35,454 nt of DNA from Lentisphaeria bacterium (lineage in GTDB: Bacteria > Verrucomicrobiota > Lentisphaeria > JABSQK01 > CAJWLW01): positions 1-35,454 of the forward strand of contig CAUZRT010000003.1 in assembly GCA_963582235.1 (NCBI GenBank). Direction: 5' to 3'. A model generated the notes under the pieces. It saw nothing but the letters and a program-made list of their open reading frames with translations, made no database searches and was not told the DNA's origin. A program made the translations under genes and the position numbers. Shown here in pieces: positions 1-33,193 of the stretch; within the stretch, counting starts at the first letter, position 1; each line of letters starts with the position of its first letter.

Positions 1-72
1 ATACAACCGGAACCTGCTTATCAGGTGGTTGTTAAACGGTCTGGCACCAATGCCAGAATGACGATCCGGGCA

Positions 73-31479: not shown

Positions 31480-32277
31480 ATGCCGGATAATCCATTCGAT
31501 CTGACAGGCAAAGTCGCAATCGTTACCGGTACCAGTCGTGGTCTTGGGCAGTACTTCGGCCGGGCCCTGGCGCGTGCGGGCGCCGATCTTGTCATTACCA
31601 GTCGCAGCAAGGATACGCTTGAACCGTTCCGGAGCGAAATCGAGAGCCTCGGTCGCAAGGCGTTGCCGCTGGCTCTGGATGTGCGGGACTACGACAGCAT
31701 TCAGCGCATGGCGGCCGAGGCAAAGGCGGCGTACGGCCGGATTGACATCCTCGTCAATAACGCCGGTTGCAATGTTCGTAAACCGTCCGACGACATCACT
31801 TGGGACGATTGGAATCTCGTTCTCGACACGAACCTGCGGGGGATGTTCTTCACAATTCAGGCCGTGGTGCGGGGAATGCTGTCGCGTCGCTACGGGCGCA
31901 TTATCAATGTCGGGTCCGTGACCTCGGTCTTCGGGTGCGGGGGGCTGGCCCCGTATTGTGCCAGCCGCGGCGGCGTCAAGCAATTGACGATGAGTCTGGC
32001 CGACGAGTGGGGGCCGTCCGGCATCACCGTCAACTGTCTGGCGCCGGGATGGTTCAAGACGGAACAGAACAAGGTTCTGTACGAGGATGAAGATTGGGTC
32101 ACCTATATCACGGATCGCATACCGCTGAAGCGGCCCGGACAGCCGCATGACTTGGATGGATGCGTCGTCTTCCTCGCCTCGGATGCCAGCGAATATGTTA
32201 CCGGGCAGATCATCCTCATTGACGGCGGCATCAGCACCGGTGCCATGCGCGCCCTGCCGGGCAATTTCGCGAATTGA
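31480..32277 (+). CDS. SDR family oxidoreductase (gluconate 5-dehydrogenase-like)
   Basis: TGTSRGLG, NNAG, YCASR (the YxxxK position has Arg), VNCLAPG and YVTGQ. Confidence 0.9.
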   Translation: MPDNPFDLTGKVAIVTGTSRGLGQYFGRALARAGADLVITSRSKDTLEPFRSEIESLGRKALPLALDVRDYDSIQRMAAEAKAAYGRIDILVNNAGCNVRKPSDDITWDDWNLVLDTNLRGMFFTIQAVVRGMLSRRYGRIINVGSVTSVFGCGGLAPYCASRGGVKQLTMSLADEWGPSGITVNCLAPGWFKTEQNKVLYEDEDWVTYITDRIPLKRPGQPHDLDGCVVFLASDASEYVTGQIILIDGGISTGAMRALPGNFAN

Positions 32278-32324
32278 GCAACCCCCCCCCGGGTGGTTCC
32301 CCGCCCTCGTAATCGGCGTTTACA

Positions 32325-32449
32325 GGAGGGGTGGCTGAGTGGCTGAAAGTCCCGTTTGCCCGTATGGGCATCACGGGATTTAAGGCAACGGTCTTGCCAC
32401 GTGATCCGATGTGCCGCGTTGCGGCATCACGCGAAAAACCGTCGTGGGC
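32325..32449 (+). repeat. Duplicated 5' 51 nt of tRNA-Ser interrupted by two hairpin inserts
   Basis: 32325-32342 + 32379-32396 + 32435-32449 is identical to 32710-32760. Inserts are at 32343-32378 and 32397-32434. Confidence 0.92.
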
Positions 32450-32458
32450 CCGGCACCC

Positions 32459-32746
32459 ATGAGTCAGATGTATTACGTCTACGTCTTATACAGTATTAGT
32501 CACGACAAACTCTACATAGGCAGTTGTGCCGAACCGGATGAGCGATTGATCGCACACAATGCCGGGCGCGGGGGTTGGGTCCAAGCGATACCAGACCCTG
32601 GACCCGCGTTCTGCTCGAAGAGTATCCGGATCAGCCTGGCGGGTAAGCGCGGGAGGTCCCTAAAATCCGGATGGGGGCGCAGATGGCTGCAAAAATTCCT
32701 TAACTACAAGGAGGGGTGGCTGAGTGGTTTAAGGCAACGGTCTTGA
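32459..32746 (+). pseudogene. Small stand-alone GIY-YIG nuclease, internally scrambled
   Basis: YYVYVLYS...LYIGS...RL..HN.G and LKSG.GR motifs. The central SKRY/RPW..VLLEEY segment is out of frame, and the expected KRE reads KRG. Confidence 0.85.
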
Positions 32747-32801
32747 AAACCGTCGTGGGCTTTTCGGTCCACCGTGGGTTCGAATCCCACCCCCTCCGCC
32801 A
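32710..32801 (+). tRNA. tRNA-Ser(UGA)
   Basis: Acceptor stem GGAGGGG/CCCCTCC, anticodon arm ACGGT-CTTGAAA-ACCGT, long variable arm, GTTCGAATC T-loop, G73 and encoded CCA. Confidence 0.97.
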
Positions 32802-32809
32802 ACTCCCAA

Positions 32810-33193
32810 CTACCGGCATGCAATGCAGGAGATCTCGACGAGCACGTCCTTCGGCAGGCGCGCCGCTTCGATGGCCTGACGCGCGGGCGGCACTTCCCCG
32901 GAAAAATACTCGCTGTAAATCCTGTTGATAGTCGCAAAGTCACCCATGTCCTTCAGAAACAGCTCGACTTTGACGACCCGTTCAAGGCTGCTGCCGGCCG
33001 CTTCGAGGATTGTCTGCAGGTTATCGAGCACTCGTCGCGTCTGTGACTTAATGTCGACACCGACGATCTCGCCGGTCGCCGGATCCAGTGGAATCTGTCC
33101 CGAAACAAACACCAGATCCTCGGTTGCTACCGCCTGCGAATACGGACCGATGGCGGCCGGTGCCGTTTCTGTCGCGATCTTTGAAATACTCAT
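32810..33193 (-). CDS. ridA: RidA/YjgF family enamine deaminase
   Basis: [23 protein letters not shown] and LPKDVLVEI motifs. Confidence 0.93.

What the first reader, a model, noticed from the sequence alone, without database searches (positions are those of the whole stretch)
32325..32801. tRNA-anchored GIY-YIG cassette: [5' tRNA copy]-[mini GIY-YIG]-[intact tRNA-Ser]
Seen: the first 51 nt of tRNA-Ser(UGA) are duplicated exactly 385 bp upstream, both copies are preceded by TACA(A), and only a roughly 95-codon GIY-YIG ORF lies between them. The ORF reads into the intact tRNA (EGWLSGLRQRS) and uses the anticodon TGA as its stop. There is no integrase. Known: integrative elements usually duplicate tRNA 3' ends and encode a recombinase. 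Inference: a minimal nuclease-only selfish element that spreads by cutting or nicking at tRNA genes followed by recombinational repair, regenerating the tRNA and riding its transcription. This is the best candidate for an undescribed system in the window.
Basis: partly seen in the sequence, partly recalled or inferred. Interest (0 to 1): 0.88.

Follow-up and report, generated by a model that had tools for sequence, protein, structure and literature searches.

The report
Decayed tRNA-anchored mini-nuclease cassette
A broken copy of a tiny nuclease gene sits between a hairpin-studded fragment of a serine tRNA gene and the intact gene, and it belongs to a widespread family of tRNA-hugging, selfish-looking cassettes that I could not find described in print.

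Summary
tRNA-Ser(UGA) lies at 32710-32801. Its first 51 nt recur upstream, not as one block but as three exact blocks (18+18+15 nt) split by two hairpin inserts, in the D-loop (36 nt) and in the anticodon loop (38 nt). The 95-codon ORF between them is a dead Slx1-like/UPF0213 GIY-YIG gene, with three frameshifts and the catalytic Glu lost.

Comparison shows a recurrent architecture. In two samples of homologues, 58 of 68 and 50 of 70 evaluable loci have a same-strand tRNA directly beside the gene, against 0.18% of random intervals. Most also carry partial tRNA copies interrupted by conserved GC hairpins, and tandem arrays occur. The closest intact relatives (about 50% identity) have the same layout at tRNA-Ser. 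Their anticodon-loop insert is a roughly 60-nt two-hairpin module (14 of 26 pairs covary). The window's insert is a shortened copy of it (33.8 bits).

Best reading: a decayed relic of a nuclease-only, tRNA-gene-targeting selfish cassette that duplicates part of the tRNA, restores an intact gene and rides its transcription. The architecture and the association are shown. Cleavage and homing are inferred. Eight literature searches found no description.

The parts
32325..32342 (+). Pseudo-tRNA block 1: exact copy of tRNA-Ser nt 1-18 (acceptor 5' strand to D-loop)
   Evidence: the repeat finder D1; identity check
32343..32378 (+). Insert 1: 36-nt two-level GC hairpin in the D-loop position. Outer stem TCCCGT/ACGGGA, inner stem GCCC/GGGC. 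Same design as hairpin P2 of the module, and homologous to the D-loop insert of L159
   Evidence: unique in the genome; L159; the fold forms this hairpin
32379..32396 (+). Pseudo-tRNA block 2: exact copy of tRNA-Ser nt 19-36, ending ...GGTCTTG at the second anticodon base
   Evidence: the repeat finder D2
32397..32434 (+). Insert 2: 38-nt shortened copy of the conserved two-hairpin 'module' that sits in the anticodon loop in relatives (58-75 nt in most copies, 99 nt in one). It keeps the ends CCACGTGA... and ...TCACGCGA and lacks the middle
   Evidence: regex catalogue; covariance model R1 matches 32390-32441 at 33.8 bits, E 5.6e-7; only hit in the own genome
32435..32449 (+). Pseudo-tRNA block 3: exact copy of tRNA-Ser nt 37-51 (3' strand of the anticodon stem plus the start of the variable arm)
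   Evidence: the repeat finder D3
32468..32746 (+). Decayed mini GIY-YIG (Slx1-like/UPF0213) gene. The N-terminal 35 and C-terminal about 20 residues are in the ancestral frame; the middle needs three 1-nt skips (about 32570-76, 32592-95, 32632-41). The catalytic Glu position reads Gly. The original stop is lost, so the frame runs into the tRNA and ends at the anticodon TGA
   Evidence: the frameshifted sequence is identical in contigs of runs X3 and X4
32710..32801 (+). Intact tRNA-Ser(UGA), the only one found in the genome. It probably depends on transcription coming through the cassette
   Evidence: (60.5 bits); no promoter-like site in 32150-32900

Best explanation
The 385-nt stretch 32325-32709 is a dead copy of a small selfish cassette that lives in tRNA genes.

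An active cassette, as seen in relatives, consists of three things: (i) an 80-95-aa nuclease that is a bare Slx1-like/UPF0213 GIY-YIG domain; (ii) one or more conserved GC-rich hairpins (here a two-hairpin 'module'); and (iii) a copy of one part of the host tRNA gene.

The resulting layout is [host promoter - tRNA 1-36 | module | 37-43..51 - ribosome-binding site - nuclease ORF - intact tRNA]. The displaced tRNA fragment is disabled by hairpins placed in its loops. A complete tRNA gene is restored beside the ORF. Both the nuclease and the tRNA are then transcribed from the tRNA promoter.

Inferred mechanism: the nuclease breaks a cassette-free tRNA gene in a loop region (for the Ser lineage, after the second anticodon base). 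The break is repaired from a cassette-bearing copy, using the highly conserved tRNA sequence as homology arms. This copies in the module, the ORF and a replacement tRNA part. Repeated rounds would give tandem arrays and ORF-less module-only units.

In this genome the nuclease has since decayed (three frameshifts, Glu to Gly, lost stop) and the module has suffered an internal deletion. What remains is a fossil that persists in the population.
For: SHOWN.

(1) Family. The profile of homologues hits UPF0213 structures 1zg2 and 1ywl (E 2e-13, 2.5e-12) and then SLX1. The window matches Pfam GIY-YIG.

(2) tRNA linkage.
- 7 of 9 homologous loci in 40 relatives have a same-strand tRNA directly upstream.
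- 16 of 29 non-own loci from the phylum sample do as well; at least 7 of the other 13 have under 320 nt of upstream sequence.
- 58 of 68 evaluable loci from named species genomes and 50 of 70 evaluable metagenome loci have a same-strand tRNA within 200 nt upstream or 120 nt downstream.
- The control is 366 of 200000 random intervals (0.18%) in the own genome.
- The median tRNA-to-ORF gap is 40 nt.

(3) Partial tRNA copies. 50 of 55 loci with an upstream tRNA have exact blocks of 9 nt or more. 26 of 35 ORFs with a downstream tRNA have exact 5' blocks upstream.

(4) Hairpins. A perfect 6-bp-stem TCC...GGA hairpin occurs in the non-coding zone of 62 of 80 loci, at 2.75 per kb against 0.067 per kb elsewhere. 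The hairpins replace or split the D, anticodon or T regions of the copies.

(5) Closest intact relatives (44-54% identity over the whole-ORF tblastn alignments; L223, at 31%, and the truncated L170 ORF are left out): L148, L149, L150, L152, L153 and L159 have the same layout at tRNA-Ser(UGA), and L155 has it at tRNA-Ser(CGA). Their anticodon-loop module folds into two hairpins closed by the tRNA anticodon stem; 14 of 26 pairs show compensatory changes. The window insert matches the model.

(6) The same Ser lineage also occurs with the tRNA upstream, and in arrays (L151, L154, L156, L170, L159, G176). 5' fragments lie upstream and 3' fragments downstream of the intact gene, all broken at the same anticodon-loop site.

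(7) ORF-less module units exist (G008 of the same order, G176).

(8) Within a locus the fragment equals the local tRNA in 36 of 36 positions (5 of 5 loci measured), while the tRNAs of different loci share 24-30 of 36 (one pair is identical).

(9) Distribution is patchy and multi-copy: 143 of 301 genomes of the phylum sample, up to 9 matches per genome, with many interrupted copies. A second decayed copy lies beside tRNA-Ser(CGA) in the own genome.

(10) Nuclease lineages cluster by tRNA identity: 53 label changes against 87.9 in shuffles, with 0 of 200 shuffles as low. The Ser clade has SH-aLRT 95. An Asn group joins Lentisphaerota and Synergistota (quick tree).

(11) Decay of the window copy. 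The same sequence is found in other seawater runs.

INFERRED: cleavage of tRNA genes, repair-mediated copying, and the roles of the hairpins.
Against: - No cleavage activity, target site or mobility event has been shown for any member.
- The restored tRNA in a cassette-bearing genome still contains the presumed target, so self-cutting is not explained.
- The protein has no DNA-binding domain beyond the 80-95-aa catalytic core, unlike the characterised GIY-YIG homing enzymes.
- No cassette-free allele of the same locus was recovered. The same-family relatives have a plain tRNA-Ser(UGA), but in a different gene neighbourhood. Synteny was also lost around L012.
- The 2006 survey of the superfamily treated the prokaryotic Slx1-like proteins as mostly vertically inherited (passages of PMC1564403).
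- No homologue of the Ser-lineage protein was found in 50,697 phage or 72,556 plasmid records at E 1e-5, so no vehicle is known.
- The tree is a quick one on 79 columns with many unresolved forks, and related rows share labels.
- Exact 8-9-nt blocks can arise by chance (about 0.2-0.3 expected per locus), so the block counts are slightly inflated.
Confidence: 0.6

Rival explanations
1. Host-serving accessory gene rather than a selfish element. The mini GIY-YIG would be a structure-specific nuclease or RNA-processing factor that serves highly transcribed tRNA genes (for example R-loop or cruciform removal, or precursor processing). The tRNA-derived hairpin leader would be its regulatory 5' UTR. 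The partial tRNA copies would be by-products of local tandem duplication.
For: The fold is closest to SLX1-type structure-specific nucleases. A tRNA methyltransferase fusion in this branch led the 2006 survey to suggest a role in RNA metabolism (passage of PMC1564403). The module is a covarying structure closed by the anticodon stem and always sits on the coding strand next to the ORF, as a leader would. No phage or plasmid copies were found.
Against: The family was found in only 143 of 301 genomes of one phylum sample and is patchy within genera, for example 1 of 9 and 15 of 19. Many copies are interrupted by stops or frameshifts. There are tandem arrays of near-identical units and ORF-less units. 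The same lineage attaches to one tRNA type across phyla. Both copies in this genome are dead. A housekeeping factor would not be expected to behave this way.
Confidence: 0.2
2. Toxin/antidote or defence module. The nuclease would cut the cognate tRNA or its gene, or invading nucleic acid. The repeated hairpin-bearing pseudo-tRNAs would act as RNA decoys or antitoxins, analogous (from recall) to the repeat arrays of type III toxin-antitoxin systems.
For: Arrays of pseudo-tRNA repeats lie upstream of the tRNA-nuclease unit in some loci (L083, L118, G176). There are weak domain-level similarities to GIY-YIG domains of candidate defence proteins (PDC-S14, UzuA; best E 1.5e-5).
Against: The PADLOC hits cover only 30-55 residues of much larger proteins and there is no PHROG match. 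Arrays usually repeat the nuclease gene itself, which a toxin-antitoxin logic does not predict. The neighbours in the window are housekeeping genes, not a defence island.
Confidence: 0.07
3. Scar of a classical integrase-mediated island that entered tRNA-Ser and was later deleted down to 385 nt.
For: A partial plus a complete tRNA copy flanking an insert is the usual signature of integration into tRNA genes (passages of bioRxiv 10.1101/2022.07.05.498093).
Against: The duplicated part is the 5' part of the tRNA, not the 3' end. No integrase was found among the 10 ORFs scanned between 26.6 and 35.3 kb. The same small layout recurs in over a hundred loci with nothing but the nuclease ORF and the hairpins between the copies.
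Confidence: 0.02
4. Misassembly or chance repeat.
For: The genome is a 442-contig draft, and tRNA sequences break assemblies: the Logan contigs end inside the tRNA.
Against: Contigs from runs X3, X4 and X5 cover the fragment with both inserts, the fragment-to-ORF junction and the ORF-to-tRNA junction with 0-1 differences. One 15-kb contig of X1 (possibly the source sample) spans 31900-32798. The layout is reproduced in independent metagenomes.
Confidence: 0.01

Closest known systems
Free-standing GIY-YIG homing endonuclease genes of T4-like phages (for example SegB in the T4 tRNA gene cluster)
   Same: A GIY-YIG nuclease gene lodged among or next to tRNA genes, without an intron or integrase, thought to spread by cutting a cassette-free allele and being copied in during repair (start of the abstract of PMC2330249 in the listing; the rest is recalled).
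   Different: Seg and I-TevI-type enzymes are larger and carry separate DNA-binding modules (recalled). Here the protein is only the 80-95-aa catalytic core of the Slx1-like branch. The setting is bacterial chromosomes, with no match in the phage collection. The cassettes also carry partial tRNA duplications with conserved hairpins and form arrays, which are not features of Seg genes as far as I recall.
Bacterial UPF0213 / Slx1-like stand-alone GIY-YIG proteins (PDB 1zg2 BH0048, 1ywl EF2693) and eukaryotic SLX1
   Same: Best sequence matches of the family profile. These are the minimal GIY-YIG domain without auxiliary domains (passage of PMC1564403).
   Different: In the passages read they are described as probable repair proteins that are mostly vertically inherited. 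The passages read in PMC1564403 and the eight searches turned up no mention of tRNA linkage, hairpin-bearing tRNA fragments or arrays.
Integrase-type genomic islands and prophages in tRNA genes
   Same: [quoted passage not shown]
   Different: No recombinase; the insert is 385 nt; either half of the tRNA can be the duplicated one; the displaced copy is interrupted by conserved hairpins.
Group I introns with homing endonuclease genes in bacterial tRNA anticodon loops
   Same: Insertion exactly in the anticodon loop, and association with a GIY-YIG nuclease (title and abstract start of PMC3984707 in the listing; the rest is recalled).
   Different: No ribozyme: Rfam finds only tRNA at or above threshold in the window region and in 25 related loci. 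The interrupted copy lacks its other half. tRNA function is kept by duplication, not by splicing.
E. coli tyrT-distal rtT repeats (recalled; Rfam RtT RNA)
   Same: A tRNA gene followed by repeat units that contain pieces of the tRNA 3' end. A sub-threshold RtT match (37.5 bits, gathering score 45) falls on a T-loop-interrupted tRNA-Ser 3' fragment at L150:1555-1675.
   Different: No nuclease gene is known there. The match is below threshold and may reflect only the shared tRNA 3' end. No paper on it was read (the search gave a listing only; one search found no passage).

Membership tests
GIY-YIG superfamily, Slx1-like / UPF0213 branch | Significant match to the GIY-YIG domain model | tested here: met
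   Pfam PF01541 at 26.8 bits (cut-off 22.6), but only profile positions 1-37 of 78. A profile of 8 relatives scores the open frame at 52.3 bits.
GIY-YIG superfamily, Slx1-like / UPF0213 branch | Complete catalytic core (Tyr-Tyr-Arg-His ... Glu) in one reading frame | tested here: not met
   The middle third is out of frame (three 1-nt skips are needed) and the Glu position reads Gly. The window copy is a pseudogene of this family.
GIY-YIG superfamily, Slx1-like / UPF0213 branch | Nearest solved structures are UPF0213 and SLX1 rather than UvrC or I-TevI | tested here: met
   Profile against PDB: 1zg2 at 2e-13 and 1ywl at 2.5e-12, then five SLX1 chains.
Homing endonuclease gene (free-standing type) | Nuclease gene sits in or beside a conserved gene that could serve as target and homology | tested here: met
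   58 of 68 and 50 of 70 evaluable loci are tRNA-adjacent, against 0.18% of random intervals.
Homing endonuclease gene (free-standing type) | Presence/absence polymorphism at the same site in close relatives (empty sites) | tested here: inconclusive
   Distribution within genera is patchy, and array size differs between related loci (L080 against L085). No syntenic empty allele was recovered.
Homing endonuclease gene (free-standing type) | Separate DNA-binding domain giving a long recognition site | tested here: not met
   The 8 intact ORFs from relatives of the own genome are 78-97 aa. In the Ser lineage the conserved protein is the same core of about 80 residues; the open frames there run 78-123 aa because they extend by unconserved tails into the adjoining tRNA or flank. 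[quoted passage not shown]
Homing endonuclease gene (free-standing type) | Site-specific cleavage of the cassette-free allele | not testable with these tools
   Needs biochemistry.
Integrase-mediated tRNA-integrating island | Tyrosine or serine recombinase gene inside the insert, with the tRNA 3' end duplicated | tested here: not met
   The insert is 385 nt and holds only the nuclease ORF. The 10 ORFs scanned between 26.6 and 35.3 kb include no recombinase. The 5' part of the tRNA is the duplicated part.
Group I intron in a tRNA gene | Ribozyme core, with both exon halves flanking the insert | tested here: not met
   No intron family appears in the Rfam E-value scans. The interrupted copy ends at tRNA nt 51.
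tRNA-linked mini-GIY-YIG cassette with hairpin-interrupted pseudo-tRNA (family defined here) | Mini GIY-YIG ORF next to a same-strand tRNA, a partial copy of that tRNA on the other side, and lineage-specific hairpin(s) in loop positions of the copy | tested here: met
   Window. The insert matches the Ser-lineage module model at 33.8 bits. The D-loop insert is homologous to that of L159.

The most novel reading that the evidence does not exclude
These cassettes are a so far undescribed class of bacterial mobile element, found in at least eight phyla. Each is a bare Slx1-like GIY-YIG nuclease plus a cognate structured hairpin module. It enters tRNA genes at loop positions (D, anticodon or T loop), perhaps by recognising the cloverleaf or cruciform form of the gene rather than a long sequence. 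It uses the universally conserved tRNA sequence as portable homology arms and restores the tRNA by duplicating half of it. It also has non-autonomous, module-only derivatives that are mobilised in trans. The window holds a fossil of one such event at the single tRNA-Ser(UGA) gene.
Probability: 0.4. Interest if true: 0.85.

Novelty: new variant of a known kind. Interest (0 to 1): 0.76.

Why it matters
If the reading holds, the smallest known nuclease-only selfish element (about 0.3-0.4 kb) has colonised tRNA genes across Bacteroidota, Ignavibacteriota, Verrucomicrobiota/Lentisphaerota, Synergistota, Methylomirabilota, Patescibacteria and other phyla.

- It would give the long-unassigned bacterial UPF0213/Slx1-like proteins a biological role.
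- It would explain many of the partial or odd tRNA genes that confuse tRNA annotation, and many contig breaks at tRNA genes.
- It would show a way of invading an essential single-copy gene without splicing or a recombinase, by restoring the gene through duplication.
- It would add two or more conserved structured nucleic-acid motifs that have no Rfam match.
- It would offer a compact nuclease whose specificity might depend on DNA structure.

For this genome the practical point is modest: the cassette is dead, and the only tRNA-Ser(UGA) gene is probably transcribed through it.

Tried and rejected
- Empty site in relatives. Searching 581 nt around the cassette in the four same-family genomes matched only the tRNA part. 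The one tRNA-Ser(UGA) locus found (L044) has different neighbours, and L050 is masked by N inside the tRNA. This is not informative either way.
- Empty site for L012. The flanks lie on different contigs or places in the relatives of G030. No conclusion.
- Reads. I looked for joints that skip the cassette in four seawater runs and none was listed. These are contigs, which drop rare variants, so this says nothing about absence. Parts of the stretch without cover in X3-X5 are likewise no finding.
- The two window inserts as a dispersed repeat. blastn-short found no other copy in the draft genome. This rejects the idea that they are a repeat family dispersed in this genome.
- Promoter and terminator scan of 32150-32900: nothing found. 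The scan covers only sigma-70-type consensus, so this is weak.
- Rfam: no family other than tRNA reached its gathering score in the window region or in the 25 related loci scanned. The sub-threshold hits (sX4, a plastid 3' UTR family, RtT) overlap tRNA sequence.
- NCBIfam gave only a weak N-terminal similarity to the group I intron endonuclease model, far below its cut-off. PHROGs gave none and PADLOC only weak domain-level hits.
- Phage and plasmid collections: no match to the L152 protein at E 1e-5.
- Literature. Eight searches found no paper describing tRNA-linked bacterial mini GIY-YIG cassettes (and 82 for rtT). Only listings and abstract starts were seen, except for passages of PMC1564403 and of 10.1101/2022.07.05.498093. 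PMC10542128 held no passage with the terms. Subscription journals and supplementary files were not searchable, so prior mention elsewhere cannot be excluded.
- Programmed frameshifting as an explanation for the broken frame. I considered it and set it aside: three separate shifts plus loss of the catalytic Glu fit decay better.
- Not done: structure prediction, complex prediction, the large protein-database searches and the Atlas search. The PDB sequence matches already place the fold.
Full report
WHAT IS IN THE WINDOW

ARAGORN and Rfam agree on one tRNA in the window, tRNA-Ser(UGA) at 32710-32801. It is the only tRNA-Ser(UGA) among the 39 tRNAs found in the 442-contig, 88.8%-complete genome.

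There are three exact blocks:
- 32325-32342 = tRNA nt 1-18
- 32379-32396 = tRNA nt 19-36
- 32435-32449 = tRNA nt 37-51

They are separated by a 36-nt insert (32343-32378) at the D-loop position and a 38-nt insert (32397-32434) placed after the second anticodon base. The two inserts resemble each other, both form GC-rich hairpins, and they have no other copy in the draft genome. The 'TACA(A)' shared ahead of both copies is out of register and carries no weight.

The flanking genes are ordinary: aroQ, accB, accC, an Asp23-family gene, a CxxCxxCC-domain gene, a short-chain dehydrogenase ending at 32277, a RidA-like gene on the other strand from 32810, and a signal peptidase. There is no recombinase.

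THE ORF IS A DEAD GENE

The open frame 32459-32746 matches Pfam GIY-YIG only over profile positions 1-37 of 78. Against intact relatives, the N-terminal 35 residues and the C-terminal SGWGRRW region align in the open frame, but the middle does not.

A frameshift-aware alignment restores the conserved ...SKRY-RPW-RVLLEE... stretch by skipping one base at three places: about 32570-76, 32592-95 and 32632-41. This raises identity to L152 from 50% to 49 of 78. The position of the catalytic Glu reads Gly.

The frameshifted sequence is identical in contigs of two other seawater runs (X3 32507-32798; X4 32344-32606). It is therefore a real, population-wide pseudogene and not a sequencing error.

The same happens in the intact relatives L153 and L159. 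L152 stops at a TAG overlapping tRNA nt 1, and L150 stops inside the D-arm. The ORF simply has no stop of its own before the tRNA.

THE FAMILY

A profile of homologues finds the UPF0213 structures 1zg2 and 1ywl first, and SLX1 next. This is the minimal, stand-alone Slx1-like branch of the GIY-YIG superfamily described in the 2006 survey (passages of PMC1564403).

- The 8 intact ORFs from relatives of the own genome are 78-97 aa. In the Ser lineage the conserved part is the same core of about 80 residues, and the open frames there run 78-123 aa because they extend into the adjoining tRNA or flank.
- In a sample of the window's phylum, 143 of 301 genomes have a match. There are up to nine matches per genome, many copies hold internal stops, many lie at contig ends, and several form tandem arrays with periods of about 320-410 nt.
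- One relative's record (L056 = L008) is labelled Lentisphaerales, and its genome is of the same order as the window's. The source is therefore a marine Lentisphaerales-like bacterium. The runs that hold the sequence are seawater metagenomes.

tRNA LINKAGE

| Sample | Loci with a same-strand tRNA beside the ORF |
|---|---|
| 40 relatives of the own genome | 7 of 9 (directly upstream) |
| Phylum sample, non-own loci | 16 of 29; at least 7 of the other 13 have under 320 nt of upstream sequence |
| 80 loci from named species genomes (query: L008 protein) | 58 of 68 evaluable (53 upstream, 3 downstream, 2 both) |
| 80 metagenome loci (query: window ORF) | 50 of 70 evaluable (15 upstream, 33 downstream, 2 both) |
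| Random intervals in the own genome (control) | 366 of 200000 (0.18%) |

In the last three rows the criterion is a tRNA within 200 nt upstream or 120 nt downstream. The 33 metagenome loci with a downstream tRNA have the window's own arrangement. The median gap from tRNA to ORF is 40 nt. The own genome holds a second, also frameshifted, copy about 80 nt downstream of tRNA-Ser(CGA) on another contig.

PARTIAL tRNA COPIES WITH CONSERVED HAIRPINS

- 50 of 55 loci with an upstream tRNA have exact blocks of that tRNA, 9 nt or longer, beyond the ORF or ahead of the tRNA.
- 26 of 35 ORFs with a downstream tRNA have exact 5' blocks ahead of the ORF.
- A few of the shortest blocks may be chance (about 0.2-0.3 expected per locus), but most are 12-42 nt.

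The copies are never plain. A short GC hairpin replaces or splits part of the D, anticodon or T region. In the Bacteroidota/Ignavibacteriota-type loci the hairpin is TCCGYC-loop-GRCGGA. It occurs in the non-coding zone of 62 of 80 loci, at 2.75 per kb against 0.067 per kb elsewhere. Another clade uses CCCGCC...GGCGGG in the D-loop.

Arrays repeat [ORF + hairpin-bearing tRNA fragment]; L068, L116 and L120 have three to five units. Arrays of fragments without an ORF also occur, in L083 and L118.

THE WINDOW'S OWN LINEAGE

The closest relatives are L148, L149, L150, L152, L153 and L159. L223 shows the same layout but is far more distant. They have this layout: [exact tRNA-Ser nt 1-36][module of about 58-75 nt][nt 37-43 or so][ribosome-binding site][ORF][intact tRNA-Ser(UGA)]. 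L155 has the same at tRNA-Ser(CGA).

The module begins CCACGTGA and ends TCACGCGA. It folds into two hairpins that are closed by the retained anticodon stem, and 14 of 26 predicted pairs show compensatory changes among 11 copies. It matches no Rfam family.

A covariance model of the module scores the window's second insert at 33.8 bits (E 5.6e-7), and this is the only hit in the whole genome. The window insert keeps both ends and lacks the middle, so it is an internally deleted module. The window's D-loop insert has the design of the module's second hairpin, and L159 has a homologous insert at the same place.

The same lineage also occurs with the tRNA upstream of the ORF (L151, L154, L156, L170) and in arrays (L154, L159, G176). 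In all of these, 5' fragments lie upstream and 3' fragments downstream of the one intact gene, and every fragment is broken at the same anticodon-loop point by the module.

The module was found in 5 of 151 genomes of the phylum sample. In G008, of the window's order, a decayed 5' fragment with a D-loop insert and a module lies 45 nt ahead of an intact tRNA-Ser(UGA) with no ORF at all.

WHAT THIS IMPLIES

Shown:
- A recurrent unit made of a bare nuclease gene, lineage-specific structured hairpins and half of a tRNA gene, always arranged so that exactly one intact tRNA remains.
- In the window-type loci the ORF abuts the tRNA, so the tRNA has to be transcribed from upstream of the fragment (no promoter-like site in the window's cassette).
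- Within a locus the fragment is identical to the local tRNA (36 of 36 in 5 of 5 loci measured), while the tRNAs of different loci share only 24-30 of 36, except for one identical pair. The tRNA part is therefore made from, or kept identical to, the resident gene, whereas the hairpins and the ORF travel as a conserved set.
- Nuclease lineages cluster by tRNA identity. The Ser clade has SH-aLRT 95; there are 53 label changes against 87.9 in shuffles; an Asn group joins Lentisphaerota and Synergistota (a quick tree with many unresolved forks).

Inferred: the nuclease breaks a cassette-free tRNA gene in a loop, and repair from a cassette-bearing copy, with the tRNA as homology, copies the unit in. 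The hairpins would protect the displaced fragment from re-cutting and from recombining the cassette out. Repeated rounds would give arrays and trans-mobilised ORF-less units. One further speculation: where the stop codon lies inside the tRNA, RNase P processing would leave a stop-less message, which would limit nuclease expression.

WEAK POINTS
- There is no cleavage or mobility evidence.
- The restored tRNA still carries the presumed target.
- The protein has no DNA-binding domain.
- No syntenic empty allele was recovered.
- No phage or plasmid carriers were found.
- The 2006 survey regarded this branch as largely vertical.

The main rival is a host-serving nuclease with a tRNA-derived regulatory leader. 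It explains the structured leader, but it does not explain the patchiness, the pseudogenes, the arrays or the ORF-less units. Toxin-antitoxin or defence readings, an integrase scar and misassembly have little or no support.

COMPARISON WITH WHAT IS KNOWN, AND NOVELTY

The system works most like a free-standing homing endonuclease gene such as T4 SegB among tRNA genes (abstract start). It fails one defining feature of that class (no DNA-binding domain), and two other features could not be tested. It is not an integrase island and not a group I intron.

Eight full-text searches found no description of tRNA-linked bacterial Slx1-like cassettes or of their hairpin-bearing tRNA fragments. Journals outside the library and supplementary files were not seen.

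I rate it a new variant of a known kind (a nuclease-only selfish cassette) with several unprecedented features. The window itself holds only a fossil of it.

Noticed in passing
own genome contig C146 = L003:1315-1800: A second decayed mini GIY-YIG (frameshifted after about 36 residues) lies about 80 nt downstream of tRNA-Ser(CGA). It belongs to the other subfamily, the one with a CCTTCGC-type leader. Both GIY-YIG relics of this genome therefore sit at serine tRNA genes.
   Followed up: partly
L005, L006, L015, L020, L027, L036, L037, L039, L042, L043 (between the tRNA CCA end and the ORF): In the phylum's commonest subfamily the tRNA is followed by a conserved 110-180-nt leader. It has a stem NCCTTCGC/GCGAAGGN that starts at the last A of the CCA end, a second stem GCC.CNCC/GGNGGGC, and a CTACGGNTGGCANGCC box. 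5 of 16 predicted pairs covary. There is no Rfam match. Parts of the leader are repeated after the ORF.
   Followed up: partly
L230:1440-1711 (G008, same order); L229:1-700 (G176): Module-bearing tRNA-Ser fragments occur without any nuclease ORF next to the intact tRNA. G176 has two such 5' units upstream, then tRNA, ORF and a 3' unit. They look like non-autonomous derivatives or relics.
   Followed up: partly
L150:1524-1680: Downstream of the intact tRNA-Ser there is a further 3' fragment whose T-loop is split by a roughly 66-nt insert. Rfam gives a sub-threshold RtT RNA match there (37.5 bits against 45). This recalls the tRNA-3'-end-containing repeats distal to E. coli tyrT.
   Followed up: no
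L012:1775-2075: The stretch after the tRNA-Cys cassette matches many other places in the same and related genomes (pieces of 48-100 nt at 77-93% identity). This is an unrelated short dispersed repeat family.
   Followed up: no
window 32281-32283: The poly-C tract just after the dehydrogenase stop codon is polymorphic between seawater runs: A>C at 32281 in X3, and a 2-nt deletion at 32282 in X5.
   Followed up: no
own genome contig C24:16649-16733 and C141:3610-3704: ARAGORN calls an 85-nt 'tRNA-Phe(AAA)', an unusual length and anticodon. It might be an interrupted or pseudo-tRNA of the kind described here. It also calls a tRNA-SeC.
   Followed up: no
L080:1724-1818, L080:2059-2153 and L085:1724-1818: ARAGORN annotates hairpin-interrupted copies of tRNA-Val as 95-nt 'tRNA-Thr(AGT)'. 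This shows how these fragments can enter tRNA gene catalogues as spurious genes.
   Followed up: partly
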